From assembly GCA_964016885.1 (NCBI GenBank), contig OZ024746.1, positions 17,050,001 to 17,114,000 of the forward strand: a DNA stretch of 64,000 nucleotides, in the 5' to 3' direction. The translations under genes were made by a program, and so were the position numbers. The notes under the pieces are model-generated. The model worked only from the letters and a program-made list of their open reading frames with translations, did no database searches and had not been told where the DNA came from. This document shows positions 20,534 to 53,470 of this stretch, one piece after another; positions within the stretch are counted from its first letter, which is position 1; every line of letters starts with the position of its first letter. The DNA is from Eledone cirrhosa. Taxonomy: Eukaryota.

Positions 20534-20535
20534 CA

Positions 20536-20569
<34 letters not shown>

Positions 20570-20682
20570 CATACATACATACACACATACATACATACAT
20601 ACATATATACATACATACATACATACATACATACATACATACATACATACATACATACATACATACATACATACATACATAC
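20534..20682. repeat. (CATA)n microsatellite
   Basis: Directly visible. Confidence 0.97.
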
Positions 20683-20710
20683 AAGTAAAATTCCATTATA
20701 ACGAATACCA

Positions 20711-21835: not shown

Positions 21836-22669
21836 ACCATTATAATGAATTTTTCAATGCTCGAATTGTTTGTCAATCTCGTTACAATGAATCTCTTTTT
21901 ATAGTCTGTGAATTTTGTTATAATGGAATTTCACTATATACATACATACATATATATATATACACACACACACAGGGACATACATATATACACACACACA
22001 CAGGGACATACATCCACACACATCTGTACAGTATGTATATACATAGTTCTCCTTCATCTGACTAGTAATGGCACCCAGTATTGCCATATATTGTCAGTCA
22101 ACCAGGGAAGATGACCTGAAAGTATTGGTTAATATGTTTGTTCCAGCCAGAGATCATAGAAACACATTACTCTAATATCCATGTTTTCAGGACTTTGGTG
22201 GTAGACTGTATTAGCAATAATTGGGATTATTTCAGCATGTATTTTTATTGGATGGGCTGTTATAGACCAAGTTGTTACTTGCTCAGAGCTACTGTCCTTC
22301 TAAGTGGGTTAGGGGACCACCTGTTTCTCAATAATGTTGATTTTTGGCATGGTTTCTACAGCTGAATGCCACCCTTCAACTACTTTATGGGGTACTGGTG
22401 TATTATCAAAGCAAAAGCAATAGAAAAATTGTTATATCCTTAACATGACTGTAGAGTCCTCTCTACCTTAATATACTATAGTAAATTTATCACAAAAGTT
22501 ACATTTTCAGTGCCAAATACCACATTATAATGGACTTCCTCCTTTGTAACGAAATGTCTATATCATTGACATTCGAGACAAGACAGGTCAAATTACCACA
22601 TTTTGCTCATACGTTCCATATTTTGACATGATTTCTATAGCTGGATGTCTTTCCTTATGACAACCACCC

Positions 22670-23000
22670 TACAGAGTAAACTGGGTGCATTTTCCTGTAT
22701 TACCAGCTCTACTACTTTACAGGGTGTAATGGGTGCATTTTATCATGATACAAGCACTACCACCTAATAGGGGGTACTGGGTGCATTTTCCTGTGTCACC
22801 AGCTCTACTACTTTACAAGGTACACTGGGGGCATTTTATCATGACACCAGCATTGCCACTTAACAGACTGTACTGGGTGCATGTTATCATGACACCAGCA
22901 CTATCATTTTACAGAGTGTACTGGGTACATTTTATCATGACACCAGCACTATCACTTTACAGAGTGTATTGGGTACATTTTATCATGACACCAGCACTAA
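22670..23000. repeat. About 48-bp minisatellite, about 7 copies
   Basis: Unit TTTACAGAGTGTACTGGGTACATTTTATCATGACACCAGCACTATCAC. Confidence 0.85.
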
Positions 23001-24406
23001 AGAGATTGTCTAGTCCTTGACAAAACCAAATATTTCTCTCCCCCTTGCATTGTTTCAGATTGTTTGTCAATCATATTAGTCTATATTTTAATAATAGTTG
23101 TATTATTATGTTTATCACTCACCTCACTAATCCCAGGTTATTAGATTACACATGATGCTATGATTCCTTAACGGTAATTGTTTTAGTCAATTTAGTTGTT
23201 GTTTTTGTTGTTATTCTATTTCTCATGAACAATGTGACCAATCTCGCCTGCTTCAGTTGACATTTTACCATTTTTCAATTTCATCTGCTTACTTGACCCA
23301 ACCACAGCTTATAGCAACAACATATATACAATTATAATCTCTACATAATTCATGTGACACATTATTATTCTGGTCACCAATTATATTCTCTTTTAATGCT
23401 TCTAGAAAATGTTCTCACCACCACCACTAACAACAACACCCTTCATCATTATTGTCATCCCAACTATCAAGCTAATGGAGGACCCTCCACACAGTTGCTT
23501 TACTTACTGGGTGTAGCAGCTAAATCTGCCTTAAATCACATTGTATCACTTTTGACCCTTTTATTTACCATATTTGTAATAAAATGCACTGCCTATGATT
23601 TCCAAATAATTTTCAAAGTAAGTTTTAGTAATATAACTAACTTTCTCATTATTAAACTGGTGTTTGGAAATGACAATTATTCTTACATATTGAAGGATTT
23701 TAGATAAATATAAACACTTTAAAACAAACAGTATTTGTATCATATAACCACAGTTTCAGGCAGATGGTATTAAAGGGATTAAGAAGGTTGGACATTGGCA
23801 GATGTAGTCCTAGATATACAAAAAGATGAAATGATATTTGGAATGCTTTTAATCATAGGTCAACTCAGTCAGGAATGACTTGAGCTTAAACAGCAACAAC
23901 ATCAACACTACTGTCAATATCAGTTGTATCATTCATTGTCAATCTCATTGTCATAACATTGACTGTTTTTTTTTTGGGGGGGGGGGCTATCAGTAGAGTA
24001 GATTTACACAATAGGGGGTAAGTGGGGTGGATTTACACAGGGGCAGGAGAGGAGATGAGGGGTATCAGTAGGCTGGATGTACACAGTAGTTGTGAATTAG
24101 CAGTCATTGGAGTATTGGATTAAATGCCTTGCAGTATTTGTTCTAACTCTCTACACCCTCTGTTCAAATCCCACTTTAAGTTACACATTGTCTTTCATCT
24201 TTTCAGAGTTGATAATATAAACTATCAGTTGAGGGTGGTGAACTGGTAAAATTGTTAAAGCATTAGATAAGGTGCCTTGTTGTATTTGTTTAAGCTCTGT
24301 GCATTCTGGGTGTTCATATTCTACCTAGGGATTTGAATCCCACAATGGCTAGAGCTGACCACATGGCTGTAACTGATTATGAAAGCTGTAATGAACAAAG
24401 ATGAGT

Positions 24407-26177
24407 CATCATCATCATCATCACCGTTTTACGTCCGTTCTTCCATGCTAGCATGGGTTAGACAGGATGTCCTATTGTGGGCAATGTCTGGTCGGTTGAC
24501 CATGCCTTGCTCATACAGGAACTGATTTTGGCTTGATTTCTACAGCTGGATGCTCTTCCTAACACCAACCTCATTTACAGTGAGTGCTGGGTGCTTTTTT
24601 CCGTGGCGCCTACACGTCCACTTTACAGTGTGGGCTGGGTGCTGTTTTGCCGTGGCACCTCCACGACCACTTTGCAGTGGGAGGGTGTGGGGGCATATTG
24701 TCTATATGCTTCAGCTTGTACCCATGGGAAGTCGGGGACTCTGTATTACTGCGTGACGCCAGAGGTCACGGTCGTGTGTCATCGCCTTTGAGAGGTGCAA
24801 CTGGGTAAGGTCGGCCCCTATCACCTCATCCCAGGTCTTCTTGGGTCTCCCCACTCCGCGGTTTCCATTGACTTCTAGTGCTCTGCACCTTTTTATGCAA
24901 CTGTCATCCTTCATACGCATCACATGTCCATACCAATGCAACCTCCTCTCCTGCACACAGCATTTGATTCCTCTTATGCTCAGTATCTCTCTCAATTTAT
25001 TTATGCTTTGCCGTTCGCGTATATTACTATTACACATCCATCGGAGCATGCAGGCTTCGTTTCTTGCTAATCTACATAAGTCTTCCACCTTCAGCGCCCA
25101 GATCTCACTACCATGTAACATTGCTGTTCGGATACACGCATCATACAGTCTACCTTTCATTTTGAGGGAGAAGCCTTTTGCAGCTAGCAGTGGCAGTAGT
25201 TCCCTGAACTTCTTCCATCCCGTTCTTACTCTAGTTATTGTACTTTCTGAACACCCACCTCCGCTGCTAATTCGGTCACCTAGGTAGCAGAAGCTGTCTA
25301 CTGTTTCTACAGAGCCCTCACAGAGATTAGTGGTACTTGTTTCCTGTGGCTGTTTGCTGCTTGCTGTCCCAGCACAGCTGCTACATGTGAAGCCTACATT
25401 CTTAATTAAGCTTCCTGAGATCCCGCTACATCTCTTGTGTACCCATTGTTTGCATTTGGGGAAGAGAATGGAGTTCCTACCTACACCTTTCCTACATACT
25501 GAGCAAGGCCATTTCCCTAAGGGGATCTGGGTTCTGTTTTCTCACCTACTTACAAGGACCTTAGTCTTTGTCATGTTGACTTTGAGACCCTTTCTTTCTA
25601 GTCCCTGCTTCCAAGTTTGGAATTTCTTCTATAGTTCTACCATAGATTCAGCTATGAGTGTGAGGTCATCAGCATACAGGAGTTCCCATGGGCATCCGGT
25701 CTTAAACTCCTCCATTATTGCCTGCAGGACTATGATGAACAGGAGCGGGCTAAGAACAGAGCCCTGGTGGACACCAACCTGTACGCTAAATTCCTCGCTA
25801 TACTCATTGCTAATCCTAACTTTGCTGACTGCTCCCCTATACACGGCTTGTACAGCTTTCAAAAGCCATTCATCTACTCCTAGTTTTCTAAGAGCCTACC
25901 AGATTATAGCATGTGGAACTCTGTCAAAGGCTTTCTCGAGATCGACGAATGCCAGGTAGACTGGCTTACTTTTAGCTTGGTACTTTTCCTGTAACTGCCT
26001 CACAAGAAGAGGGCATCAGTGGTGCCTCTTCCTGGTACAAACCCAAATTGCATCTCATCTAGTTTCACCCGGTCTCTAATCAACTGTGCTATAACTCTTT
26101 CTGTTACTTTCATGACCTGGTCCATCAGCTTTATACCTCTATAGTTTCCTCTATCTAGTGCATCACCTTTACCTTTG
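24407..26177 (-). mobile_element. 5'-truncated RTE LINE, family A
   Basis: ORFs 25629-25862 (GVHQGSVLSPLLF...LLYADDL) and 24711-25160; (ATG)n tail. Confidence 0.93.
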
Positions 26178-27034
26178 AGTGTTGTATACTATATTTATAA
26201 AAGAAAGTATGGGTTGGAATCAAGAAAGAAAAAATGCCTAAAATAAAACGTCTCATCTAATCTACAAGCTGTCCACTTTGTTATTTGTGCCATCCCTGGA
26301 GGGGCTCTGATGCAGGAGAATTCACCTCATGTAGTGAAACCAATCGTGATTGGGGTGAAAAATAGTCAATTTCATTATAATTAGGGTGTTTCTGATACTA
26401 ATATGGTTAGATTTTTAATCCTGGGGAATATAGAAAATTGTTTGAATTTGAATCTGCTCTAAGTCTATGACCAGGTTTGTAGCTGGAATTTGGGTAGGAA
26501 GAAGGTGGTATGTGAAGAAACTAGGATAGAACAAACAACTAAGGAGGTGATGAAGTTATGTCAACAGTTGATTAAAGGAGAGGAATAAAGTTTTAAACTA
26601 GAGAAAGGTTATTTAGTGTTGTGTTAGCTGCCAGCTTGCTAAAGGTATATGTAATTAGATGTGAGACACAACATAGCAGGTTTTTCTAAATTATATCAAC
26701 ACCACTAACCAGAGCACCAGAACATCTGTGACATTGTGAATAGTAATACATATATATATAGATTATTTACTAAGATTGTTGATATTAACTCAACAGTCCC
26801 TGGCCAATGTTTAGTTCACTCAATAAATCTGCCAAGTTGCAGTAATGCAACTGCAACCAGTAGTTCAGAGTGCACACATTTTAGTTAATAGCAAGTACAG
26901 TGGCTGTGTTTTGATAGAGATAAAGTATATATCTCTTATATATATATATACATATACATATACATATAAATATATATATATATATATAGACAGACATATA
27001 TAAATATAAATATATACATATATATATGTATAGG

Positions 27035-27257
27035 ATCGATCGACTTTCGTCAAATCGGACAGACGAAACAATGTGTCCGCTGGTCTTTCCAGTTGCTAGT
27101 ACTATCTATCGGTCACAACTCCAGGTAGAAGGAGCAACGTGAAATAAAGTGTCTTGCTCAAGGACATAACGCATCACCCGGTCCAGGAATCGAACTCACA
27201 ACACAACCTCAAGATTGTGAATCCAATTCTCTAACCACTCAGCCACACGCCTTCACA
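27035..27257 (-). mobile_element. tRNA-derived SINE with CORE-like segment (related copies near 14090-14265, 36050-36175, 47010-47262)
   Basis: Minus strand has A-box TGGCTGAGTGG, B-box GAGTTCGATTCC, then GTCCTTGAGCAAGACACTT. Confidence 0.75.
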
Positions 27258-29319
27258 TATATATGGGGATATAGAAAATATGGGGACTCTGCATAGAATA
27301 TGTGCTCCATTTCCCTGCATGTCGTAAGATGTGACTAAAAGGGTTGGTAGCAAGAAGAATATTTTACTATAAAACATTGCCATGGAGTCTTCAAGGTTAA
27401 CCCCTGCTTTAAAATGCTTATGAATGATTGATAGTTTATGTTAATTGAAGTCAAGTTTACTCTCAGAAATTTAGATGTGGAGTCACTGATAAAGTCTAAA
27501 GCATGTGATATCTGAGATAGTTCTTCTTAATAACTTAATAAAATGTGGAGAACTCAGGGAACTTGTGTTGGTCTGTATTAACACAATACAGTCCGGGGCA
27601 GATGTGGACTCTGCTAGCCGTAGTGAAAGCAACCTGTCTAGGAGAACAGTGACTCTGATTTAAAACAATTGCACAAGGCAGACGTAGGCTCCGCAAGCCA
27701 TAGTGAAAGCTGCCCATCTGGGAGAGTAGACACTCCAAATAAAAACTGATACGGGGGGGGGGGGGGGGACTCTTAAGTCCAATAAGACAACCTCTCTAGT
27801 GTTGGTGGCATGAATAATGTACCTAGTCCGCACTGTAAAGTGGATGGTGATAGGAAGGCCATCCAGCCAGAAAAACCCAGCCAAAATTTGAAAGAAAATG
27901 TTCAACTGACCTCAGGAGTTTAGAATCTACAGTTTCAGACCTTAAGGCTTTGTGTCTGAGAAAAAAGGATAAGAGACAATATGGTGTTGTTTGGAGGCTG
28001 GTAGACAGCACTTCTTAATGACTGCTATGTTATGAGACTAGTATTAATGTTGGGAACAATACTGAAGATTTTTTTTTTCCTGTTAGAATTCAAGACCTGT
28101 CCTTCCTTTCAGGATTAAACAGTATGGATTTCTACATTTTATCTTGGTACACCTACTACACACACCTCTTTTGTTTTATATTTTCTAACTGCACAACATT
28201 TTTGGTAACAAAGAAAACCTTCAGCAATATCCTATATACAATAGTTTAATGATAAGTTTAAAATGTGTAACTAATTAATGAATTAATTAGAGTTGTCATT
28301 TACAACTAATTAATGCCCTCTGGAACTGGATTGACAATTTCACTGTATTTGAGAGAGATTTTGCCTGTAAATTATTGAGGGGGAAGTGACCACATAAAGA
28401 CATGGGAATAGGTTGGATAATGGACAAAATGAAACATAGCACAGACTATCGTTCTGGAATCCTGTCAGAGAGCACAGTAAAGTTCTCAACTTGGTAGAGG
28501 TACTAGATATATATCTGGAGTTGTTGATAGCAGCTTCCTTGAGTAATGGAAAAAAAGGAAATATGCCGAGACTGTCATTTCTGAAATCCACATAATAAAC
28601 TGCACTGATTGATCTACTATGAAACTAATGAAGTTCAAGTTGCAGGATCCCAGAAGTAGTTGATGTTTTAAGGCTTTTCATCCTGGAGGGGACCACATAA
28701 CAGTTGAAGGTTCAGAACCACCACTGAGTCCATGTCAGAGCTCATAGTTTGTTTCTCAACTAGGCAAAGGCAGTGGATATCTATCTGGAGCTGTGGGTTT
28801 GTTACAACTAGTTATTCAACTCTCTACTGCTTAGTTACTATTAAAGATCTGCTCAATCAGGTCTGAATACCAACATTACTTTTATGCCCAATTACCCATG
28901 CTGACACAGGTTTTCTACAGACAGATACCCTTCCTGATGCCAGCATATACTTTACTTCTTAGTATGGTGTATACCATTCATCTTTGCCAAACCAGTTAGC
29001 TGCAGGCCATAAAGAATGTCACTTTAAATGGTGTCAGTGTGCATGATGTCAGTCACATACATATATATGATGGTTTTAATATACCTAATTGAACCATATG
29101 TTCTTACATTCAATGCAGATTATCTCCAGTTAAAGTTGATATGTTCTATTGTACATGTATATCATTAGATATATATGTATATATGTCATTCACTATTTTG
29201 TAATGATTAAATGCTCAGATTTATTCCTTGAGCTTAGTCTTAGGGGATAAAGCGCATCTTTGAGATTATCTCAAACATGACATTTTTAATTTTAGATGTA
29301 ATGTACACACACATGCATA

Positions 29320-29480
29320 CAATGGGATCCTCACAGTTTTCAACTACCAAATTCATTCACAAGGCATTGGTCAGCCCGAGCCGATAAAAGACTATTACCC
29401 GACATGCTTTGCAGTGGGGTCAGACCCCAAATCTCTGTGGTTACAAAGCCAACCTCTTGACTAAATACCCATGCCTGTGC
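29320..29480 (-). mobile_element. Degenerate SINE of a second family (copies near 2520-2625, 12395-12540, 20250-20390, 46855-46960)
   Basis: Recurrent CCAAATTCA(C/T)TCACAAGGC...GCAGTGGG motif. Confidence 0.6.
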
Positions 29481-29711
29481 TTTTAATTAATGTATTCCAA
29501 AATTGGAATCAGTAATGTGTACTACTAGCTCTTCAAATTTGGAACCAGTTATATGGGTCAGGCTGCTTTAATGTGGGTCAAACTAGTTTGATTGAGCTAA
29601 TAATACTTTTGAGATAACTAACCTAGTTATTTTAGTCCTTACCTTATTTTTATAGCACACTGGTATTTAGTTAAAGAGGGAAAAGGAGGTAAAAGTCTGT
29701 TGGGAGAAGAT

Positions 29712-29960
29712 TACTGATGTGTGTATATATATATAGTCAGTACTACTGATGTATATATTTATATAGTCAGTACTACTGATGTATATATTTATATAGTCAG
29801 TACTACTGATGTATATATTTATATAGTCAGTACTACTGATGTATATATTTATGTAGTCAGTACTACTGATGTATATATTTATATAGTCAGTACTACAGAT
29901 GTAAATTATATATAGTCAGTACGACTGATGTGTTGTGTTTATATATATATAGTCAGTACA
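29712..29960. repeat. 30-bp minisatellite, about 8 copies
   Basis: Unit TACTGATGTATATATTTATATAGTCAGTAC. Confidence 0.93.
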
Positions 29961-30649
29961 GAGTTACTAATTGCAGATGCAGACTGCTATACTTGTAATG
30001 AGTAGGTATTTAGGCATATAAATGGATATTTAAAAATAATTGTGGCTATTTAGCAATATATGTAGATAATTTAACAGTATAAATTAATATTTATCCTTCT
30101 GATACCAGACTCCCCGAAACCACTCCTAATTCCATGAATGATTAAAAGCTTTTTTTTTAAGTGTGTATATTTATCTAAACCACTTCTATCATAATTTTAT
30201 GTCAGAACCTTTATATTTCAAACACCATTTTAAAATGCATGAGTTAAATTAGTAAAGTCTTAGAAATTTTTGATTATTTTCATAGCTAATTGAAAATCAT
30301 AGGCTGTGTAATTTCATTTGAAATATTGTAACAAACGGTTATAATATAGCAATCATTTTTATCGTTTTTACATCTGTTACTAAAGAAAAGTGCATTGAAC
30401 TTCACATATCAAACAGTTATTAGAACATTGGACATAATACCTTGTGGTATTTGTTTTGTCTCTGCTCTAAGTTCAAATCTTGCTGAAATTATCATTGCTT
30501 TTCAACCCCTCCGGTTTGATAAAAGTACCAGTCTTCAACAGTGGATTAGTGTTGGTCGTGTTGGTCGTGGTGGTAGTGTTGGTCGTGGTGGTAGTGTTGG
30601 TCGTGGTGGTAGTGTTGGTCGTGGTGGCGGTTGTGGAGGTAATTACTAT

Positions 30650-30684
<35 letters not shown>

Positions 30685-31360
30685 TTTTCAATGAAATATC
30701 ATTGAGTGTTCATAAGACAATGCCAAGTCACATATCTGTGATGGATTTAATAAGAGAATGTCTCATGGTTAGTAATACATACATCCATAGATTTATCACC
30801 CAACAGACAAGGCTTGTTATATCTACCCCCCACACAGCCATTTCTCTCTCTCTGTCTTTATTTTTCCTTCTTTCTCACCCCACTACATAAAAATCTCCAT
30901 TCTCTCTCCTCAATCTCCCTCTCTTACACCCTCCTCCTCTTTTCCTGAAACATTGTCTAGGAGTTTGTGAGGTATTTTTCATTGATAAATAACACTTGTA
31001 ATAATTTGGCATCCTGTCAAGAATTAGCAAGATTTTCAACACTGTTTCTTATTGCTTTTCTCCTCCACTTCATCACTATCATCACCATCACCACCATCAT
31101 CACCACTACCATCATTATTTTTACATCACCTTTTCCATGCTGGCATGGGTTAGATGAAATGTTTTGAGTATTCTACAGTTAGATGTTATTTCTTGATGTC
31201 AGCCCTTAGTTTGGTACTTATTACACACATCAATCCACTTAGATACAGGATATAAACAAACTGCACTATTTGTTTTTAAATGGTGTCAACATGAAGGCAT
31301 GGAGAAACAAACACAAACTCACACATACATTATTTTATTTTCATCATATATATAATATAA

Positions 31361-31415
<55 letters not shown>

Positions 31416-32434
31416 AAGACCATCATGTGTGTGTGTGACGTGCATGATATAGTGGTTAAGGTGTTGTGTTCTCGAGCATTGTGTTTTTAAGAGAGTTGAG
31501 TATGATTTAAGAATGATACAGCTGTTATTTCTAGCATGTGAAGTACCTGTATACCTGTCTCTCATTGATTTAGTTTCTTGGTTGTTACTTCATTGTTTCA
31601 CTCACGTATCAGCTTTGGCCACCCTGTCCTCTTTTTTTTAACTTATTATAAACAGAAAAAAGTCATGCAGTATAGTCATCCATTTCTAAGATTGTAGAGG
31701 GATATTTGACTGCCAGTTCTACCAGATCAAGTAATCATTTATATCTACTTTGTTGATTTGAGGTGTTCACACTTGTTATAGTCACACCATATATGGTGGT
31801 CATACCTGGTATAGTCACACCATTTTCAGTGCTGCTATTTATTGAATTAACATGTCCTTGCATTTTTAAGACCTGGCGTGATTTGAGGAAGATCTGGCTG
31901 CTATTTAGTGAATCAACAAACCATTATTCCATTATGTGGTGGTATCTATTTACCGTTAGGTAAACTGTGGTGTTAAGAATCATATTTATTGGCCATATTA
32001 GTAACAGAATATGAACTCTTAACACTTTATATCTCACTTCCTTTATGATTTGGACAGCTATAGCCCATAATAAATAATGAAGAATTTTTCATGGCTGTTA
32101 ATAACTATCACAGTAATCTCACTTTCCTTTTTATTATATTCACATGATTCATTATGCTCACACCTTAATTAGTGTACTAATTTAAGATAACTATATGATG
32201 TGGCGATCAATAATTATTGTTCAGGATTAAATTGAATAGTAGAGATTTTCATATTTTATATTGTTTGTGTAATGTTATTACGTGTAAGACTAGTAGCTAG
32301 CAATACATCATATAATGACCTATATCTATTTCACAGTGATGTAGTCAATTGCTACTGTTCTGCTCACACTTTGCCAAAGAATACACAAATATATTTTCAC
32401 TCATATTCTACTAGAATGTATCCAAGAAAAGCCA

Positions 32435-33040
32435 CCTGTCTGATAGACAACCATCACTGTGTCTTTACTGTGTCTGGTGGACAACTTTCACTGTCTGATA
32501 GACAAGACTCCACTGTGTCTGTTAGACAAGACTCCGCTGTGTCTGACAGACAAGACTCCGCTCTGTCTGTTAGACAAGACTCCGCTGTGTCTGATAGACA
32601 AGCCTTTACTGTGTCTGATAAACAGACCTTTACTGTGTGTGATAGACAGACCTTCACTGTGTCTGATAGACAGGCCTTTACTGTGTCTGATAGACAGGCC
32701 TTTACTGTGTCTGATAAACAGGCCTTTACTGTGTCTGATAAACAGACCTTTACTGTCTATCAGACACAGTGAAGGTCTGTCTATCAGCAGACCTGCACTG
32801 TGTCTGATAGACAGGCCTTTACTGTGTCTGATAGACAGACCTTCACTGTGTCTGATAGACAGGCCTTCACTGTGTCTGATAGACAGACCTTCACTGTGTC
32901 TGATAGACAGGCCTTCACTGTGTCTGATAGACAGACCTTTACTGTGTGTGATAGACAGGCCTTCACTGTGTCTGATAGACAGACCTTCACTGTGTCTGAT
33001 AGACAGACCTTCACTGTGTCTGATATACAGACCTTCACTG
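32435..33040. repeat. 24-bp minisatellite with one inverted segment at about 32756-32787
   Basis: Unit ACTGTGTCTGATAGACAG(A/G)CCTT(C/T). Inverted piece TCTATCAGACACAGTGAAGGTCTGTCTATCAG. Confidence 0.93.
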
Positions 33041-33440
33041 AGTTTATAAATCCAGTACTAGTTGAGGGTGGTGGATCAACAGAATTGCTGGATGTATCTG
33101 TTCTAGCTTTGTGCATTCTTAGTTCAAATCCTGCCTCTTCCACAAATAGGGACATGATAGACCTGAGATCCCTATCATTAAAATCTCCTAGAGACCTATG
33201 GAATGCAGCCTAATAGGAGGCCAGCAAAGCCTGCACAGTTGTAAGCTGTAACAACAGCAATATGCCCAACCACATCTGTGTAAGCCCCCCCCCCCCTTCA
33301 AATTAGCCTAATTATTTTTGTCATTATTGTTATTGCACGGAACTATGTTTATTGTGCTTCTTACTGATAATCAGCTTAAGGAGAGGAGGAGAAAAAATAT
33401 ATATCAACTAACTAGTAGTACTGCAGTACTATTACTTAGT

Positions 33441-33496
<56 letters not shown>

Positions 33497-33500
<4 letters not shown>

Positions 33501-33818
33501 AAAAAACGAAAAATCAGTGATGCATCTGGACTCAATTTATTGCGTGTTACAATTGTTTCGCCGGCAGGTAGCTCGAGACATGGTCCCTTGTATGGATCTG
33601 GCTGATTCTACGGCGGCAGGTTCCTTCAGACACGGGTAGTTCGTTCGGAGCAAATTTTATCACTGCTCCAAATGAACTACCCATGTCTGAAGGAACCTGC
33701 CGCCGTAGAATCAGCCAGATCCATACAGGGACCTTATCTCGAGCTACCTGCCGGCGAAACAATTGTAACACGCAATAAATTGAGTCCAGATGCATCACTG
33801 ATTTTTCGTTTTTTTATA
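33497..33818. mobile_element. Fold-back element, about 155-bp arms and 11-nt loop, with hammerhead-like motif; probable inverted pseudo-LTR of a Penelope-like element
   Basis: 33497-33652 is the near-perfect reverse complement of 33664-33818. The arm reads CGTGT-CTGAAGGA...GGC-GAAAC-AATT-GTA-ACACG-CAATAAA. Bounded by (TA)n. Confidence 0.7.
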
Positions 33819-33904
33819 CTATCTACACTCTACTCTGTTGAATATTGAGTGCTAATTTTGGGATACCGCCTATGGAAGCACCATAGCTACCATTATACAC
33901 AAGT

Positions 33905-34506
33905 ATATATATATATCAACTAACTAGTAGTATTGCAGTTCTATATATATCAACTAGCTAGTATTACTGCAGTGCTATATATATCAACTAACTAGTAGTA
34001 CTGCAGTGCTATATATATCAACTAACTAGTAGTATTGCAGTGCTATATATATCAACTAACTAGTAGTACTGCAGTGCTATATATATCAACTAACTAGTAT
34101 TACTGCAGTGCTATATATATCAACTAACTAGTAGTACTGCAGTACTATATATATCAACTAACTAGTAGTATTGCAGTTCTATATATATCAACTAACTAGT
34201 AGTATTGCAGTTCTATATATATCAACTAACTAGTAGTACTGCAGTGCTATATATATCAACTAACTAGTAGTACTGCAGTACTATATATATCAACTAACTA
34301 GTAGTACTGCAGTGCTATATATATCAACTAACTAGTAGTACTGCAGTGCTATATATATCAACTAACTAGAAGTACTGCTCTCTGTAGAGTCAAGATTATT
34401 GATGTAATTATTCAATAAAGTATTTACTAACTGTAGGTGTAGACAGCAGTACTATTAGTTAGTTGATATATATAGTACTGCAATACTATTACTTAGTTGA
34501 TATATA
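33905..34506. repeat. 34-bp minisatellite, about 14 copies, plus inverted copies at 34447-34506
   Basis: Unit TATATATATCAACTAACTAGTAGTACTGCAGTGC. Confidence 0.93.
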
Positions 34507-34566
34507 TGAATATAAAGTGATATTTAGAAATGCTGTGTCAAGAACTTAATAACTTCTAACCTTTTG

Positions 34567-35425
34567 AACCCTGACCCACTGCTACATGTGTGTGATACCC
34601 AACCCTGACCCACTGCTACATGTGTGTGATACCCAACCCTGGCCCACTGCTACATGTGTGTGATACCCAACCCTGACCCACTGCTACATGTGTGTGATAC
34701 CCAACCCTGACCCACTGCTACATGTGTGTGATACCCAACTCTGACCCACTGCTACATGGGTGTGATACCCAACCCTGGCCCACTGCTACATGTGTGTGAT
34801 ACCCAACTCTGACCCACTGCTACATGGGTGTGATACCCAACCCTGGCCCACTGCTACATGTGTGTGATACCCAACTCTGACCCACTGCTACATGGGTGTG
34901 ATACCCAACCCTGGCCCACTGCTACATGTGTGTGATACCCAACCCTGACCCACTGCTACATGTGTGTGATACCCAACCCTGACCCACTGCTACATGTGTG
35001 TGATACCCAACCCTGGCCCACTGCTACATGTGTGTGATACCCAACCCTGGCCCACTGCTACATGTGTGTGATACCCAACCCTGACCCACTGCTACATGTG
35101 TGTGATACCCAACCCTGACCCACTGCTACATGTGTGTGATACCCAACCCTGACCCACTGCTACATGGGTGTGATACCCAACCCCGGCCCACTGCTACATG
35201 GGTGTGATACCCAACCCTGACCCACTGCTACATGGGTGTGATACCCAACCCCGGCCCACTATTACATGGGTGTGATACCCAACCCCGGCCCACTGCTACA
35301 TGGGTGTGATACCCAACCCCGGCCCACTGCTACATGGGTGTGATACCCAACCCTGGCACACTGCTACATGGGTGTGATACCCAACCCCGGCCCACTGCTA
35401 CATGTGTGTGATACCCAACCCTGAA
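34567..35425. repeat. 34-bp minisatellite, about 25 homogeneous copies
   Basis: Unit ACCCTGACCCACTGCTACATGTGTGTGATACCCA. Confidence 0.96.
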
Positions 35426-36787
35426 CATCTGTATGAAAATCACTGAAAAATGATATAACAAATATAGAAATTTGCCAAAAATAATGTTAAGGTCCTCTCA
35501 ACTCCAACTAAAGTAATATTGTATAACAACCACTGATTCAAGCAGGAAGTGGTTTTTGGCCTGTTTTGAATGAATATAGCCTTCCAAACTGTTGGATATT
35601 GGTAAAAACTCATTACGTACTGGAATTGTGAAACAAAAACTATAATTTAAACAACACTTAGAACATTTCAAACATCAAAATATTAAAACTTCATAAATAT
35701 ATTCTCCACTCATGAGAATTGTGTTGATAACCTGCTTCGGGTTATAAATGGGGTTTGGACTTTTGCCTATATGTAAAATATATATATATATATATTTGAG
35801 TAATTTTGTAAGTCTTTTGGAAAATAAATTCTAACTTAGCAGATTTACTACTACATGTGGAATATGTTATTTGTAACCTTCTGGTGTTCCTATCCAACCT
35901 TTGCTAGCAGGGAAAGCGGAGCTTAAAACGAAGATGATGATGACCGTGATGATGTAACTGTCCAGTGTTCATCAATAATTGAAAATTTGGTGGATTTGAC
36001 AAAGGTGAAAATGGGTGAATTGGAATTGAATTTGAAACGACTACACGTACAATTGTGTGGATTAGTGTTTAAGTTGCTCGGTTCATGATTGTAAGGTTGT
36101 GAGTTCGATTCCTGCCTGCATCAGGTGGCACATTGTATCCTTGAGCAAGATTCTTTATTTCACGTTGCTCCAGTGGTCTGATCACTTATCCCTTTCTACT
36201 GTATTAACGATATCAAAAGCTCTAGTAACAGAACAAAGTGATCTGTTGCTGAGGCTGTTCTCTCGTTTCTCCACACCAGGATGAGACAGAGCTGTTCCTC
36301 ATCAGTAAATGGAAAATAACAACAAAAATGAATCAGAAAGAAGAAAAATAAAAGATTTACTTTGTCAATTATTTGTTACAACAAAGAATGCTGATGTTTC
36401 ACTTTAAACATTTTTGAGGCCAAGTAGTAAAGTTAACTAGGCTTCAGTGGGATTTGAACTCAGAACACAAACACCTGGAAGAGATACTGCAAATCATTCT
36501 CAATAGATCTCAGAATGAAGTAAATGAAAATATCTCATCCAATTCACTAGATTCATTGTGTATATATACATTTAGGTAGGGCTAGTCTTAGAGTTAAGAT
36601 TAGGGTTTGCTCATTGGTGTGTGTGTGTTTGTATGTGTATGAAATATATGAGTTGAGCATGTGAAATGAATCTGGTAAGTTGAATGAGATATTTTCATGT
36701 TTTTCATTTGAGATCTATTTTCAATGACACCCAATTATTCACTTATGTACCCCTTTGTTAATTGGCCTTAAGTCTAAGAAAAAAACT

Positions 36788-36844
36788 CACCATCTTCATC
36801 ATCAACACTACCATTATCATCATCATCTTCATTATCAATAGCAT

Positions 36845-36876
<32 letters not shown>

Positions 36877-37180
36877 CAACCAACCTTACAACCACCATCA
36901 TCACCACCACCACAACCAACCTCTCAACCAGTACTATCATCATGATCATGGCCATTCTCACCACCACCATCATTATCATCATTATCGTGACGGCAACCAT
37001 TCTCACAAATATCATCATCATCATTACCACAACTAACCTCACCACCACCACCACCACCACTATCATCATCATGACCACAACCATTCTCACAAATATCATC
37101 ATCAGTACCACAACTAACCTCGCCACCACCATTATCATCATCATGACCATGACCACAGCCATTCTCACAAATATCACCAA
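36788..37180. repeat. Degenerate (CAT/CAC)n tract
   Basis: Low-complexity tract giving poly-I/T and poly-V/M ORFs. Confidence 0.9.
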
Positions 37181-37870
37181 GATTATTATATAGTGTTTAC
37201 CAGATTCATATTTGTATGCTAACATCAGCCTTGATCTTTATATAGCATTTATTGTCATTAGAACATACCAGAATATATGTGCTAAGTAAAATTGCAGCTG
37301 AGATTAGCGAGTTATGTTCTACTTCACATTTTAACTATTTGAGGCTATTTATGAGGGGCTGTTAGTATAACCCCACCCCCTACACATAACATCAAACATA
37401 CTTAAACTATTAAAGAAAATGTTTTAAAAACAAAGATGTACAGAAAAAGAGCCCCCTCCCCCCACTTGAAAAACTGGACCGTGTGTTTTCTTCTGAAGTG
37501 ACAAAAATAAATAAAATGTAGGAGGGGGTACATCCTTCACCCCGCCCCCACCTCCCACCACAAAAAAAAATTCTAACCACACTACTACTCTTACCTATCC
37601 TCTCCAGATTATCTGCACTAAGTATAAAGGTGGGGTGTACCCTGATCTGGTGACCCAGAAGTTTAGAGTTCATATTTTCATTGCAGGTGTTTATTATTGC
37701 TACTGATTATTTACCTAGACAAGGATCTTGGTTTAGTGTTTACTCTAGCAGAATAGGTAGACAGGTCCTAAAAGAGGGGCAATTTAATAGGGAAATACCA
37801 AGGTGACTGTGAATTAATTAAGTTATATATATATAATTTGTCTCTCATTAGAGAGGAATTCATATCAGAA

Positions 37871-37914
<44 letters not shown>

Positions 37915-38073
37915 CAATATCGGAGAAAGCTTTTTAGCGATACTCCGGCCAAATTCCAACTCACTCAACAAACATTAGGAAATAAGTGATTATATTCCTA
38001 ATTAAGCGTTCAGGGTGCTAACTAAAAGTATTGCGTGTATTATTTCATATGAGACATATCGAATATATCTCTT

Positions 38074-38200
38074 CCCAGACGGACGTCTCGTTTCATTATA
38101 GGATTCCTACAATTTGGGTGAAATTATACCAATTTATGTAGGAGCTTGTATACCATCAATAGATATATATCCAAGTGGGCTCCTATAATTCATCAGTGGG
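38074..38200 (-). ncRNA. Type I hammerhead ribozyme motif
   Basis: Minus strand: CCCA-CTGATGA-ATTATAGGA...TCCTATAAT-GAA-ACG AGACGTC CGT-C-TGGG. Stem I 4 bp, stem II 9 bp perfect, stem III ACG/CGT with palindromic GACGTC, GUC cleavage triplet. Confidence 0.8.
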
Positions 38201-38509
38201 TGCCCCAATAATACTAATATTGATAATCTAATCAACATCAGTATTTAGCGATAATCATCATCATCAGTGCCTGAGGTATCTGTCAGGGTTGCTAGTCCAG
38301 CAGTTCTAAAGAAATGCTCAAACTGATTCGAAAATGAGGAAGTAAATTACCGCCAAAAAAAAAATAATACATGCGCATGACAATGAACTCTAAAAGGAAT
38401 TTAGGCTACTATATATATATATGTAGGAATTCTGATATGAATTCCTCTCTAATGAGAGACAAATTATTTTCTTCATACCACTGCTTTTACAATAATAATA
38501 ATAATAATA

Positions 38510-39620
38510 ATAATTTCTAATTTAGGTGCATAGCCAGCAATCTGGTTGGAGGAGAAAGTCTATTATAATGACCCCCCCCCCCTCATCCCCAGTACTCGAC
38601 TGGTATTATATTTTATCAAGCTCCTAAAGTATGGAAGACAAAGTTTTAATTCAAAATGGGTTTGGAACTCAAAATGTAGAGCCAGAATAAATACTTGCAA
38701 AGTATTTTGTGTGACATGCTAAAATGATTCTTCTAATCCACTGCAGCACAACAACGATTTCTTTGTTAACCTCAAAGGTTTACATAGAGATCAAATGCAA
38801 TATAGAACAATAGTATGGATTTACATGTAAAACATTTAAAAAAGGAAAATAATTAAAACAATCTGAAACATTAAAAAGCCATAAATTCTAGTGGTGAGGG
38901 GGAAGGGGCTATATATATAGACAATTGAATTCATGCCCGGTATATTGCTGGTACTTATTTTGTTGGTTCTACACCCAGAATAGAAAATCAGTGACTGCAG
39001 AATTTGAAGTTACCGATAATGGCAGTGGTGGTCACCATGGCAACAATAATTTCCTACACATTGGGTTTTAGAAACGGGATGGGTTGTGAAATTCTTACAT
39101 TGATGATGATGATGATGATTGTTTCTAAGGTTGAAAATTTAGTTGGGTTGGTTGATTTATAATATGGACCCCAGTACTTGACTGGTACTTTATTTTATCG
39201 ACCTTGTAAGGATGAAAGACAATTAACTTCAGTGGGATTTGAACTCAGAACAAGTACTGCAAATAATTTTCTTCAAATCCCTAACAATTCTGCCATAATA
39301 ATGGTTTCTAATTTAGGCACAATGCCAGCAATCTAGTGGAGGTATTAAGCCCAGTACTCAACTGGTACTTTATTTTATCAACCCTGGAAAGATCTTACAA
39401 AGAACATAGAGGGATGTAACAAAATACTGCAAAGTATTTTCTCCAATGTGCTCATGATTTTGTCAATTCACCATCAATAATCATAATAATTCTGTCTAAC
39501 ATCAAGCCAGCAATTTTGGTGGAAGAGAAAATATTGACCCCAGTACTTAACTGGTATTTAACGACCCAGAAAGGCAAAGTTGAACTCAGTAAGATTTGAA
39601 CTCAGAATGTAAAGAGCTGA
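38510..39620 (-). mobile_element. Cluster of about 4-5 degenerate head-to-tail SINE copies (family of 50010-50203)
   Basis: Repeated CCCAGTACT...ACTGGTACTTTATTTTATC...GATTTGAACTCAGAA. Confidence 0.75.
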
Positions 39621-40794
39621 CCATGAGGGCAGCAATACTGTCATTTAGTATTTTGTGAAGCTAATTTAATTAATATTTCAGTGTTGATAACTTATGGTAG
39701 GTAGAAGTTTGTTTAGCTGTCTTCCTCTTAACATGATCCTCTTATCAGCTTTCTTCTTCAATTAACTTGTTTTTAACAGCTTAACTCAAAGCACAAATCA
39801 TACACGGTTAAGTCCCTTATTAAAACAATTCAATAAGATCGGTATTTACACAGTTATGTATTTCTCTATAAACTATATACACATGCCTAAAGAACAAAAA
39901 GAAGTGGTTAATCAATGGTAACAACAAGAACAATTGTTATATCATAATTTCACTCCCTTTCTATATTTCTCCATGTTTCCTGCTTAAACTGTTTTTATAC
40001 TAATCCTTCTGAAACCACTTCTGTTTCTGCAATACAAAACTATTTTTAAATGTGCATTTAAAAGATCGTCCGTTGTAATTTTATTCAAGAATCTTTGTTA
40101 AGTTGTGTTCCAAACACAAGCTTTATAATGGAAAAATGTTATTTTACTAAATCCCTCCAAATTCTTGATTATTTTCAAAATGATTTAAAACACAGAAAGC
40201 ACTTCATTAAGCATTAGAGTTAAACAGATCTTAACCAGTTCTCAACTGTTACAGTAGCAAATATGTAGCAGAAGTATGGTTAGTATTAGAACATACTATC
40301 AGAAGATAGTCGAGTTAAACAGATCTTAACCAGTTCTTAACTGTCACAGAAGCAAATATGTAGCAGCAGTATGGTTGATATTAGAACATATATAACTATT
40401 GATGATTTAGAAACTGGATTCTCTTGTTAATATTAATCACAATGGTATGTATTACAAAGATTCAACAAATATCTGCTGTTTGAACAGCGTCTTAATAATA
40501 ATAATAATGAAATTATTGTGTAAAGTGCTCAGGTGCACTACAACTCGTCAATATAGTACATAGAATAATACACAAATGTCAGGGAAGTACATGTTTGTAT
40601 GTGTTAGCTGTAGTGTTGGCGGATCTCGGGAAGCATGGAGGCCTTAAAGGATGCAGTGTCTCGACAGCTAACAACTGATGCAGGATCTTATACAATATAT
40701 TGCTCCCATCTTGTCTGAATAAACTCCTTTTAATTACTACTTCCTAAGGTGGTTTTTAGGAGACAAAAACTGAACTTTGCCCCTACACTCCTAA

Positions 40795-40847
<53 letters not shown>

Positions 40848-43637
40848 TACATAGATAGAGAGAGAGATGTAGCCTTTTTTTCATTCTACAGCTATTATTA
40901 CAACAGGCATTGCACCTATAAACTTCCTGCTTCCATTCTAACTTCACCCAACATTTTTCACTACTTCCTCAGTTCTTTCTGTTTACCAACCACAACTATA
41001 TTTTCTTTAACTCTTCTTCTCAGAAGTGATTCTCTCTAGAGTTTTAGTCCAACCCTTAAGATATTACTTTGTTTATTTTTAGTCAAAATTATTTCCTCTA
41101 AATGTTGCATTTTTTGTGATGGTGGTGGTGGGGTATTCCACTTGATAGTAACCAAACAAAAGTCAGGAAGTTGTTATAAAGTCAAGAGAGGAAGGGCAAT
41201 GCCAATAACCTGTTTCAGAGCCTTCAGCGAGGGAGTGAGGTGGCCTTAAACTAGAGACCTCATCTGAATGCTTGCAACAGAATAAAAATATGAAGAGGTG
41301 CAAAATTTTCACTGGTTTATTATGCCTGTTTATTAGAGTGGTGGCAGGAAAAGTGTCTTTGCCTCTCCCCAGAGACTGAGAGCCTTTGCTACCCACTGAA
41401 AAGAGTCCTCCTTCAAATACCAGACCTCATTTCTTCTCTCCATACACAAACTTTGTTTTTTGTTAATATAAACCATTGTCTATTTTCTTGAACTCTCGTC
41501 CCCATTTTTTCCACACTAGCATGGGTTAGACCTAACAAATATATCCATTCTAGCCATCTTCTTGTTTAGGATATATCAGATTACTGCTGGATGTATCAAG
41601 CCCCTTCTATTTCTTTCTGTATGATTAAACAGTTATTGAAGATTTTTGGTCCTCCAATTAACCAGTGCTGCCACACTAATTTGGCACTGACCTGACACTG
41701 TCAGTTTGACATTTTTATCAATTTGTCTTCCCAGACAGAGACTTTCTTCCTACTCCTACAATGTACCAGCCATAGCCATTAACTTTTGTCACATATGACA
41801 TATATTCATTGTATATTATCCATTGACAAGTTATGTGATATACTACTGGATCATTATTGCCTTATCCAGGACCTTATACCGGATCAGGGTGATATAGTAA
41901 TGCATCTATAACCCTTGTGGATGCTACTGTTATATTTCAGACCTGGGAGTTGTATCAGCTAAGAGTTAAGTCCAGTCTTCTCAATATCTGGGATTTCCCA
42001 ACACTGACTCTGACATGAGATGTAGTTTAAAGTTATAACCAGGACATGTTATACTCTACCTATTCTATCCATACTAACAAGGAAGATATTTTTCTCAAAA
42101 AATGAAGAAATGAGTAAAAGACAAAGTAAATTTTTATCTTATCAGTTAAAACAAGCAGAGGGAAACATTATAGAAATAAACATGAAGTCAATAAACCTTC
42201 CTTTAGATTTTTCAAATGTTTCCGGTACAGATTGATATATCTAGCTGAATTCAGTCATTACAAGACTATTGAGAAGAAAGATAAGTGTCTATTAATTGAA
42301 ATATTTTTAAAATCTTACTAGTGGGTAGGTTTGAGCACTTAAGAATTGTTTAAAAAATGCACTCAAATGGAATGGAAGTACTTAATTAAAATGAAAATTC
42401 TAAACTAGTTGTACTAATTAAAAAAATAAATACTTTTAAGGTTATATCATTGTATGATACATGTCAAAACTTCACTGCTATTAACTTTTTCTTCTTTTAG
42501 TAAAGGGCATCCAGCTATAGAAACTGTGCCAAAAATGAGGGTTGAAGGGATTCTTCACTTGCATCAAGGGCATATCAGTCTCCCTAATACTAGTACCATA
42601 TTATAATACATCTAGTACATTCTATAAACTGTTTGGCATTATAAAGGGTATTCAGTTGTAGAAACCATGTCAAAATTGAAATGTATGCCAGCAAGACGTG
42701 GCCCTCAGTCAGTATAAAGAGAACAGAGGCTCCAGTTAAGTACTTACTTGGTCTCCAACCCATGCTAACATGGGAAAGTAAACATAAAATGATGATGACA
42801 GTGATGACTAAATCTAATGTTTGATTTTGTTCCGTGAATTTTTATGACTGTTCTGTTTATTTTTGAAATCCTCATTCTGAACAAAATGTAAATTTTGTCT
42901 AGATTTCTGAGATAAGGAATTATTATACAAGTAGCATTTTAAGACCATTTTCTCTGCTAAAGCAGGTTTTATATGCATCAATGGGGTAATTTCTTAGCCA
43001 ATATTTTATAACTGGATGCCCTTCCTGGCACCAGCCAATGAAAGTTGCTTCTTACAACATGCAGGGATATAGTGTGTCTATTGTGAACCAGATACATACA
43101 ACAAGCAGTATATGAGGAATTATAATTATTATTAACTAATTTATTTGGACTTGTCTGCCTGCTTTTTGTGAATTCCATCCTTGGTTTATTGTATTTATAT
43201 ATACTCTAGTTTAAGCAGAACAAGTGACAACACAATTAATATAAAGAAATCCCAGGCATGGACAACAGAATGAGAACAATCTACCTCCTGTAATTTGAAT
43301 ACAGGGTTTGGCTTGAAATCCTAAGAACATTATTGAATACAACAGGACCCCGAAGATGGTCAGAGGGTACAATAGCTGAAACATTGTGATTTATAACAAC
43401 CAGGATAAGATTAATAGTCTGATTATCATCATCATTGTTTTTATGTCCACTTTTTCATGTTGTCATGGGTTAGATATGAGGATTTGAGACATTTTACAAC
43501 TGGATGCCATTTCTAACACCAACCCTTTCAGTTGTTTTTTATGACATGCAGGGATATAGTGTAGCTATTCTAAAGCACGGAACACACACTATATCAGTAT
43601 ATAAAGTTTTGTGCTGTTTAGTTGTCTATTTTTATAT

Positions 43638-44170
43638 TCATCATCATCATCATCATCATCTTCGTTTAACGTCCATCTTCCACGCTAGCATGGGTTAGAC
43701 GGGAGTTGTCCCACTTGAGGCAAGGTTGGTCGGGTGACCATGTCTCGCTCATATAGGACTATCTGGCAGGTTTTCTACGGCTGAATGCCCTTCGTAACAC
43801 CAACCACATTGACAATGTGGACTGGGAACTTTTTACCGTGTTACCTACACAACCACATTACAGCGTGGACTGTGTGTTTTTTTTGTCGTGACACCCACAC
43901 GATCTCGATCTCGATCATCTCATTTATTTGAACTGGATGTTGTGGTACCAACTTTACAGAGAGAGGGTGGTGTTGGTGGGAGGATAGAGTAGGGGTAGTG
44001 GATTGGGGTGTATATTTGATTAAGAGGTGCCTACTGACTGTAGGTTTTGCTTTGTACTTAGGCAAGGCAGGTCTTCTGTATTACTGCGTAGTGCCAAAGA
44101 TCTCGGTCCAGTGACATTGTCTTAGAGAGGTGCTAGTATGTAAGGTCGGAATTTATCAAATCATCCCAGG
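43638..44170 (-). mobile_element. RTE LINE family B, 3' fragment
   Basis: Matches 15254-15750; (ATG)n tail. Confidence 0.88.
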
Positions 44171-45396
44171 AGTTAAAATCTTACCATAGTTGATTTTGTC
44201 TTTCATACTTTTAAAGTTGATAGAATAAGCACCAGTCAAGTACTGGCGTCAATTCGAATTGATTGTTCTTTTTCAAAAACACGTTAACATCCGCCTATGT
44301 TAGAAATCATTACTATTATCATATTATCACAAATATACGGAGAGCAATATTTTGTATTGTAGGGACAAGACCACCTCTCTAGTATTGGTACCACAATAAA
44401 ATACATCCATTATACTCTGTAACGTGGTTTGTGTTGGAAAAAGCATCTAGTCATAGAAACCATATCAAACAATTTTGGAATGTATTAGCGGAACCTGGCG
44501 TCACAGTTTATCTATGGGGGCGTCACAGTTTAACATGTCCAATCCTTGCCATCATGGAAAGCAGGTGTAAAATGATATCTAGGTTTAGGGCTAATCATTC
44601 ATTCCAAATCTTATCCAGAAGTATCCCAGTTTGTCAATGATTCATCAAACACCAGTTCCAATCACTGATGTATCATTGTTTTATATTATTAACTAACAAC
44701 ATTCACAGCTGTTGTTTTTTTTTTCACTCAAATTAATTAAGTAAACAAGTGGGGGTTGTCAAGTGCTGATATAATGTACATTCTTTGGACTGTTTAGAAA
44801 GTCTTGCCATTAATCTATGTTTGTGTGTCAGTCCAAACAATATCTATTACACACACACAAAGAAAGAGCTTGGCAGTAGATCAGATTGTTTGACAGGCAC
44901 CAAAATAAACAATCTTATATTGAGATATATATGGGACACAAGGCTTCTATATGAATATATAAGAATTGTGGTTTGGAAATGACTAAATGTATAGAGTACT
45001 ACTTGTACTTGCTTTGGGCTTTCACCCATGATGGGTTGAGCCAACTTCAACCAGTGAATTTACAGCATCGCAAATACAGGCCACCAATGTATTGTGATCA
45101 AAGATATCCAATGCGGATATTGTCAGTCACAATTCCAACAACAGATATGTATTTGAGGAGCAGATATTAACTCAATCTGACTTAATTGTACTAATTACGT
45201 TTTAAATTGTCTGCCCCACCATTGACTCCATTTTGGGAAGGACTAGCATGATTTTTATTATTTTCAAAATGATTTGAAAATCATAGTCTGTCTTTTGTTA
45301 GAAATATGGTAATAAAAAGGTTTATGAACAATTCTGAAAGTCAATACTCCTTGTTTATTATGTTCAATTAATTTATTTTGATTTTGTTTATTCTAG

Positions 45397-45497
45397 GACC
45401 CTAATTGGTACCAGGCTAAAAATTCATATGGCAGAGAAGGAATGATTCCAGCAAATTATGTTCAAAAGCGACAAGAAGTCTCATTACAGACTATGCC
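45397..45497 (+). CDS. CSK: CSK exon, SH3 C-terminal half and SH3-SH2 linker ([34 protein letters not shown])
   Basis: TTTGTTTATTCTAG| acceptor and ATGCC|GTGAGC donor, 101 nt, phase 0-2. Matches Csk [25 protein letters not shown]. Too short for the ORF track. Confidence 0.96.
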
Positions 45498-53244: not shown

Positions 53245-53470
53245 ATGGTATCATGGAAAAGTTAGCCGAGAAGAAGCAGAATCTCTTCTGGCTGGACACA
53301 TGATAGGGTCATTCCTTGTACGAGAGAATGGCCATTACCCTGGGGATTACACCTTGTCACTAGTCATCCCTGGGGATGTAGTGGAGCACTATCGAGTGCT
53401 ACAGACAAACAATAAGGTTGAAGTCGATGGTGGTGATCTTCAGTTCGATACTCTACTGGAGTTAGTTGAG
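53245..53470 (+). CDS. CSK: CSK SH2 exon A, divergent alternative (WYHGKVSREEAESLL...FLVRENGHYPGDYTL...VEHYR...FDTLLELVE)
   Basis: TTTGTTGCAG|A TGG acceptor and GAG|GTATAC donor, 226 nt, phase 2-0, 75 uninterrupted codons. Keeps the Csk-type YPGDYTL and VEHY motifs. Confidence 0.9.

What the first reader, a model, noticed from the sequence alone, without database searches (positions are those of the whole stretch)
38074..38200. Canonical hammerhead ribozyme antisense within a CSK intron
Seen on the minus strand: all core nucleotides (CUGAUGA, GAAA, GUC), perfect 9-bp stem II carrying a long branched insert (TCCTACA/TGTAGGA sub-hairpin), stem I CCCA/UGGG, and stem III around palindromic GACGUC. 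Predicted cut is between 38078 and 38077. It sits in a roughly 500-bp insert bounded by (TA)n. Known: type I hammerheads with short or palindromic stem III occur in Penelope-like elements and retrozymes and may cleave as dimers. Inference: remnant of such an element. Antisense orientation spares the CSK pre-mRNA.
Basis: partly seen in the sequence, partly recalled or inferred. Interest (0 to 1): 0.7.

Follow-up and report, generated by a model that had tools for sequence, protein, structure and literature searches.

The report
Branched hammerhead retrozyme riding Penelope elements
This is one truncated copy of a non-coding ~700-base mobile repeat with thousands of copies in this genome; it carries a predicted self-cutting hammerhead ribozyme with an unusual conserved branched insert and is likely spread by the enzymes of a Penelope-like retrotransposon, while its place in a CSK intron looks incidental.

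Summary
The hammerhead is real and correctly placed (minus strand 38200-38074, predicted cut 38078/38077), antisense in a 26-kb intron of a CSK-like gene. It is not a lone remnant. It lies in a 5'-truncated 500-bp copy of a ~700-bp non-coding repeat: 8,849 matches to a 3' motif and 990 full-length ribozyme matches in the genome. Copies have a fixed 3' end at (TA)n, random 5' ends and head-to-tail arrays. Six subfamilies (60-87% identical) keep the core. Stems I and II and both hairpins of a 77-nt branched insert show compensatory changes, and stem III stays palindromic while changing sequence, which points to cleavage as a dimer. This is the anatomy of a non-LTR retrozyme. The 3' junction of four subfamilies matches, in register, the 3' junction of an intact Hydra-clade Penelope family, the likely mobiliser; the match is weak for the window's own subfamily. 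Rfam misses the window copy. Cleavage, circular RNA and expression were not tested, and the monomer fold is predicted to be poorly populated. Strand counts are 50:50 and nothing suggests a role for CSK. Verdict: a new variant of a known kind.

The parts
37910..38409 (-). 5'-truncated copy of the ~702-bp retrozyme monomer (positions ~197-702, subfamily A1)
   Evidence: 93.9% identical to an array unit
38074..38200 (-). Type I hammerhead ribozyme, predicted cut between 38078 and 38077
   Evidence: sequence; covariation
38190..38196 (-). 5' catalytic core CUGAUGA
   Evidence: only position 7 varies among six subfamily units
38104..38180 (-). 77-nt branched insert on stem II: GCCCA junction, hairpin a (38175-38145), hairpin b (38143-38105)
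   Evidence: compensatory changes in both hairpins; predicted by RNAalifold
38079..38091 (-). Stem III with palindromic GACGUC, predicted dimer interface
   Evidence: self-duplex -14.7 against monomer hairpin +0.4 kcal/mol; palindrome changes among subfamilies
38202..38206 (-). GGGGC just 5' of stem I, complementary to the GCCCA junction (candidate pseudoknot or blocking helix)
   Evidence: conserved but no covariation; inference
37910..37945 (-). Fixed 3' end of the element, the likely priming site; homologous in older subfamilies to the 3' junction of Penelope family PLE-C
37874..37910 (.). (TA)n target tract at the 3' side
38410..38421 (.). (TA)n tract at the truncated 5' side
37833..37873 (.). 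Left arm of a 41-bp inverted duplication of flanking host DNA
   Evidence: only these two arms in the genome
38427..38467 (.). Right arm of the inverted duplication
   Evidence: joined to the element in contigs of two runs
19306..45396 (+). Host intron between the two SH3 exons of a CSK-like gene

Best explanation
The site is a 5'-truncated insertion of a non-coding ~700-bp tandem repeat whose RNA is predicted to self-cleave through a branched type I hammerhead, likely as a dimer, and is likely copied into (TA)n tracts by the enzymes of a Hydra-clade Penelope-like element. Shown: copy number, non-coding unit, head-to-tail arrays, fixed 3' end, random 5' ends, (TA)n target, covariation of the fold, palindromic stem III, and 3'-junction similarity to the intact family PLE-C in four of six subfamilies. 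Inferred: transcripts of arrays are cut once per unit by paired ribozymes; monomers are ligated to circles; the Penelope endonuclease nicks (TA)n; its reverse transcriptase primes about 180 nt downstream of the cut and runs through the cut site for a variable length, sometimes more than one round. The window copy holds one ribozyme, is antisense to CSK and is most likely inert.
For: Copy number: 553, 990, 3,088 and 8,849 pattern matches, reversed controls 0-1. No ORF: longest stop-free stretch 52-137 aa over 52 units. 110 of 117 mapped elements end within 8 nt of the unit end, 95 have a TA-rich 3' flank, 38 exceed 760 nt. Among 28 places picked by a ribozyme motif alone, 27 reach position 695-702. 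Fold: 94.3% of cells paired, 8 pairs changed on both sides, slid controls 31-48% paired. Among 30 loci picked by a 3' motif only, 20 reach a recognisable 5' half and 17 of those have a whole core. Stem III reads CGAUCG, CGGCCG, CAAUUG or contains GACGUC. Circular monomers fold better than shuffles (z -7.0, -2.0, -4.0; 15 shuffles) and better than their reverse strands. Junction 50-mers of A2, A3, A3b and A4 score 32-44 against PLE-C, 0 of 6,000 background windows reach that, and the best window in the PLE-C unit is its junction. PLE-C has open frames of 698-726 aa in 6 of 6 fetched loci with the Hydra-clade motifs of PMC8557442 section 11.
Against: The isolated window copy is predicted to form stem I with probability 0.01 or less; its local fold z is only -1.43. 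None of three circular minimum-energy folds shows the complete ribozyme. Rfam finds no hammerhead in the window copy. The count of pairs changed on both sides is not beyond shuffles (39 of 500), and the changes reflect a few subfamily events. The PLE-C junction match is weak for the window's subfamily A1 (score 15; 6 of 6,000 as high) and A1b (8; 55 of 6,000), was noticed by eye first, and covers only ~45-70 AT-rich bases. Units within arrays are not closer to each other than to the nearest outside copy in 5 of 6 arrays, so a single circular template is not shown. In bioRxiv 2026.07.22.740005 only 1 of 9 predicted retrozyme dimers cleaved in vitro.
Confidence: 0.8

Rival explanations
1. The unit is the pseudo-LTR of an autonomous Penelope family that was not sampled, and the copies are its 5'-truncated ends.
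For: Short stem I, long stem II and palindromic stem III resemble Penelope hammerheads (PMC4209133); fixed 3' end and (TA)n target.
Against: Upstream of a full unit comes another unit or (TA)n; no shared non-family upstream flank recurs among 117 elements. No nucleotide similarity to PLE-A beyond AT-rich runs, and no convincing tblastn match of the PLE-A protein to 52 units. Only Hydra-type protein was used as query.
Confidence: 0.08
2. The same family, but the ribozyme cuts little or not at all, and integration uses uncut multimeric transcripts rather than circles.
For: Low predicted population of the active fold; most integrants run through the cut site; Penelope hammerheads are slow in vitro.
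Against: The core and palindromic stem III are kept across subfamilies only 60-87% identical, which implies selection for catalysis at some step.
Confidence: 0.09
3. The copy has been co-opted to regulate CSK, for example by cutting an antisense transcript.
For: Intact core inside a CSK intron.
Against: It is an ordinary, 5'-truncated, ~94%-identical member of a family with thousands of copies; it has one ribozyme, so no partner in cis.
Confidence: 0.03

Closest known systems
Metazoan non-LTR retrozymes (PMC7229834; bioRxiv 10.64898/2026.07.22.740005)
   Same: Non-coding head-to-tail repeats with one type I hammerhead per unit, thousands of copies, self-paired predicted circle, co-occurrence with Penelope-like elements.
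   Different: Units of ~690-760 nt and up to 1,030 nt (reported: ~170-400 nt circles; 51-972 bp consensus lengths). The ribozyme has a 4-bp stem I, a 9-bp stem II and a conserved two-hairpin insert instead of short interacting loops. Mostly dispersed 5'-truncated copies with a fixed 3' end at (TA)n.
Penelope-type minimal hammerheads (PMC4209133)
   Same: Short helix I (4-5 bp), long helix II, palindromic helix III, predicted dimer activity.
   Different: Large branched insert on helix II; carried by a non-coding unit rather than a pseudo-LTR next to an ORF.
Hydra-clade Penelope-like elements (PMC8557442)
   Same: (TA)n target, tandem and inverted insertions, fixed 3' end with a ribozyme upstream; 3' junction similar to family PLE-C of this genome.
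   Different: No RT or GIY-YIG ORF; similarity is confined to ~45-70 nt at the junction.
Rfam RF00163 Hammerhead_1
   Same: Same core and topology; weak hit (E 0.027) to an A2 copy with the insert skipped.
   Different: Below the gathering score; no hit on the window copy.

Membership tests
Type I hammerhead ribozyme | Core CUGANGA, GAAA, NUH | tested here: met
Type I hammerhead ribozyme | Three helices around the core, open at helix I, supported by covariation | tested here: met
   helix III pairs do not vary in that alignment
Type I hammerhead ribozyme | Loop I-loop II tertiary contact | tested here: inconclusive
   candidate GGGC/GCCC pairing conserved, no covariation
Type I hammerhead ribozyme | Self-cleavage at H17 | not testable with these tools
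   needs an in vitro assay
Rfam Hammerhead_1 (RF00163) | Score at or above gathering threshold | tested here: not met
Non-LTR retrozyme | Head-to-tail repeats with a type I hammerhead in each unit | tested here: met
   arrays of 2-4 ribozyme-bearing units in L020, L065, L066, L156/L157
Non-LTR retrozyme | No protein coding | tested here: met
Non-LTR retrozyme | Expressed as linear and circular unit-length RNA | not testable with these tools
   no RNA run was available to test it
Non-LTR retrozyme | Target-site duplication | tested here: inconclusive
   hidden by (TA)n; 1 direct and 3 inverted flank repeats in 117 elements
Autonomous Penelope-like element | ORF with RT and GIY-YIG endonuclease | tested here: not met
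Non-autonomous partner of Hydra-clade PLE | Shared 3' end and target with an intact family | tested here: inconclusive
   met for A2, A3, A3b, A4; weak for A1 and A1b

The most novel reading that the evidence does not exclude
The branched insert is a new functional hammerhead domain whose GCCC junction pairs with the strand 5' of stem I to stabilise or switch off the ribozyme, and the family is a SINE-like passenger that hands a circular RNA to a Hydra-clade Penelope reverse transcriptase through a borrowed 3' junction. That would give a named enzyme-template pair for testing rolling-circle, target-primed retrozyme integration.
Probability: 0.3. Interest if true: 0.72.

Novelty: new variant of a known kind. 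Interest (0 to 1): 0.5.

Why it matters
Animal retrozymes are thought to be mobilised by Penelope-like elements from circular RNA, but the papers read here give co-occurrence and pseudo-LTR similarity, not a priming site or a tested partner. This family offers a defined priming site ~165-190 nt from the predicted cut, a candidate intact partner sharing that junction and target, and six subfamilies for comparison. It also shows that hammerheads with large branched inserts, and core variants in the partner elements, escape Rfam, so counts of genomic ribozymes made with it are too low. For CSK itself it matters little.

Tried and rejected
Rfam scans of the window, of the narrow site and of 11 related loci: no hammerhead at gathering score. 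Sequencing-run search: no RNA holder listed; the four runs laid were contigs, at most two samples of one study, and showed no empty-site joint; neither bears on expression. MITE reading of the flanking 41-bp inverted repeat: rejected, it occurs only here. PLE-A as direct parent: no nucleotide similarity, and junction scores 0 or below. Pile-up of 5' ends at the cut site: 1 of 117, expected about 1.5. Within-array divergence as a test of rolling-circle copying: 1.1-3.7%, below the median between loci in 5 of 6 arrays but below the nearest outside copy in only 1 of 6, so inconclusive. Pseudoknot covariation: none. Pfam does not recognise the PLE-A or PLE-C proteins; they were classed by motifs from PMC8557442. 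Earlier-finding look-ups returned nothing. The primary paper on dimer cleavage (PMC5785218) was not held.

Full report
Observation. The 77-nt insert (38180-38104) is a three-way junction with two hairpins. The host gene is CSK-like on the + strand: an SH3 exon whose best PDB matches are Csk, a second SH3 exon at 45397 and two SH2 exons. The site is therefore antisense in a 26-kb intron. Rfam gives no hammerhead for this copy. The host is an animal with a 3.0-Gb assembly; that it is a cephalopod is my guess from recalled genome features and was not tested.

The element. A search with the insert gave 2,364 candidates; of 40 scored, 39 other copies were 93-94% identical. Exact or near-exact patterns gave 553, 1,266 (control 17), 990 full-length long-insert ribozymes (at least one, L133, is not of the family), 3,088 5' halves and 8,849 matches to a 3' motif, split evenly between strands. 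The unit is 702 bp in the window's subfamily and occurs head to tail. It has no ORF: 52-137 aa stop-free at most over 52 units. Of 117 distinct mapped elements, 110 end within 8 nt of the unit's 3' end, 95 have a TA-rich 3' flank, 67 a TA-rich 5' flank, and 38 exceed 760 nt. That sample is biased by how loci were chosen, but 27 of 28 places chosen by a ribozyme motif alone also reach the 3' end. 5' ends are scattered; 1 of 117 lies within 4 nt of the cut (expected about 1.5) and at least 87 lie more than 50 nt upstream of it (the sample favours copies that hold the ribozyme). A fixed 3' end with random 5' truncation is the established mark of target-primed reverse transcription. Because copies run through the cut site, the template was a circle or an uncut multimer (inference). 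The window copy covers positions ~197-702.

The ribozyme across subfamilies. Six subfamily units (single copies, not consensuses; 696-989 nt) are 60-87% identical, and the cut lies 165-188 nt from the 3' end in all. In an alignment of 31 of 70 distinct ribozyme sequences, chosen to balance subfamilies and lacking A3b and A4, 94.3% of cells pair. Eight pairs change on both sides: one in stem I, two in stem II, four in hairpin a and one in hairpin b. Slid controls pair 31-48%. The covariation score exceeds all 500 shuffles, but the number of doubly changed pairs does not (39 of 500), and the changes are a few inherited events. RNAalifold predicts essentially the same fold. Those sequences were found by core patterns, so I checked 30 loci chosen by the distant 3' motif: 10 were truncated or too degenerate to match, 20 showed the 5' half and 17 a whole core. 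Within the core only position 7 (U/A) differs among the six units, and the cut triplet is GUC or GUU. Stem III changes among CGAUCG, CGGCCG, CAAUUG and the GACGUC form and stays self-complementary; self-duplexes are -6.4 to -14.7 kcal/mol against +0.4 to +2.4 for the monomer hairpin, with one exception (the A3b copy, -1.8). By the established behaviour of such ribozymes (PMC4209133, parts 1-2 of 4 read; PMC6765202, passages) this points to dimer cleavage. Against strong monomer activity: stem I probability is 0.01 or less, local z is -1.43, and circular minimum-energy folds do not show the whole ribozyme, although they beat shuffles (z -7.0, -2.0, -4.0) and their reverse strands. A GGGC just upstream of stem I is complementary to the conserved GCCC junction in all six units, but shows no covariation; a pseudoknot or blocking helix is a hypothesis only.

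The likely partner. Two abundant Penelope families with open frames near 710 aa were found. PLE-A forms 3,542-bp tandem units and PLE-C has open frames of 698-726 aa in 6 of 6 loci picked for long frames. Both show the RW(K/R), DKT, CxCX5C, CxxC and CxH motifs and the (TA)n target that PMC8557442 (section 11 and passages read) gives for the Hydra clade; no tree was built. PLE-A shares no sequence with the unit. PLE-C ends at (TA)n with a junction that aligns in register with the retrozyme junction: scores 32, 40, 44 and 36 for A2, A3, A3b and A4, reached by 0 of 6,000 background windows, with the best window of the PLE-C unit at its junction. A1 scores 15 (6 of 6,000) and A1b 8 (55 of 6,000), with their best windows elsewhere. 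The likeness was seen by eye first and covers a short AT-rich stretch. I take PLE-C or a relative as the probable mobiliser of the lineage; the window's own subfamily may have drifted or use another family.

Local detail. The insertion is flanked by a 41-bp inverted repeat found nowhere else in the genome and seen in run contigs. Such inverted flank copies occur in 3 of 117 elements against 0.4% of mismatched pairs, probably from template switching at self-complementary (TA)n during insertion (inference).

Comparison and novelty. It works like, and meets the testable features of, a metazoan non-LTR retrozyme (PMC7229834, parts 2-4 of 6 read; bioRxiv 10.64898/2026.07.22.740005, parts 1-3 of 5 read). 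The circle-and-Penelope model is theirs. Expression and cleavage could not be tested. It differs in unit size, in the conserved branched insert and in a definable priming junction shared with an intact family. Literature searches listed no description of such a family or insert; PMC6962438 (passages) notes only 235 Hammerhead_1 hits in giant squid. Supplements were not read and most subscription journals and Repbase are not covered, so prior description cannot be excluded. Verdict: real, a new variant of a known kind, interest 0.5; the CSK location is most likely incidental.

Noticed in passing
window 53245-53470 and 59018-59237 (+): Two SH2 exons of the CSK-like gene (226 and 220 nt) have the same splice phases; including both would shift the frame, so they are likely mutually exclusive alternatives. 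One literature search listed nothing relevant.
   Followed up: partly
L061:7742-7852 (-) and L031-L064: PLE-A carries a type I hammerhead with a U3-A8 core (UUGA[U/G/C]AA) and a palindromic GAGCUC in stem III; it folds as a hammerhead in the minimum-energy structure. U3-A8 is described in PMC4209133.
   Followed up: partly
L208 about 1234-1320 (+): The PLE-C 3' end can be drawn as a type I hammerhead with an altered core (CAGAAGA, U4 to A) in most copies matched; it is not the minimum-energy fold and Rfam does not hit it.
   Followed up: partly
L068-L087: A second non-coding hammerhead repeat family (250 matches; one pair 508 bp apart) has the same stem I but a short loop II and long stem III; its loop II is complementary to sequence upstream of stem I, with an apparent compensatory variant in L082 seen by eye.
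   Followed up: partly
L067:1476-1525; L062, L064, L071, L102, L136, L155, L158, L170, L190: Several further small hammerhead motifs, some U3-A8, lie in neighbouring repeats, so the genome holds many such families.
   Followed up: no
L154/L155 and L156/L157: Subfamily A4 units are 989-1,030 nt, apparently through an internal duplication of the 5' part of the unit.
   Followed up: no
window 3568-4394, 16410-16655, 20801-21414, 24714-25895: Fragments of LINE-type reverse-transcriptase ORFs, and a transposase-like frame at 5487-5924, read from six-frame translation and named from recall.
   Followed up: no
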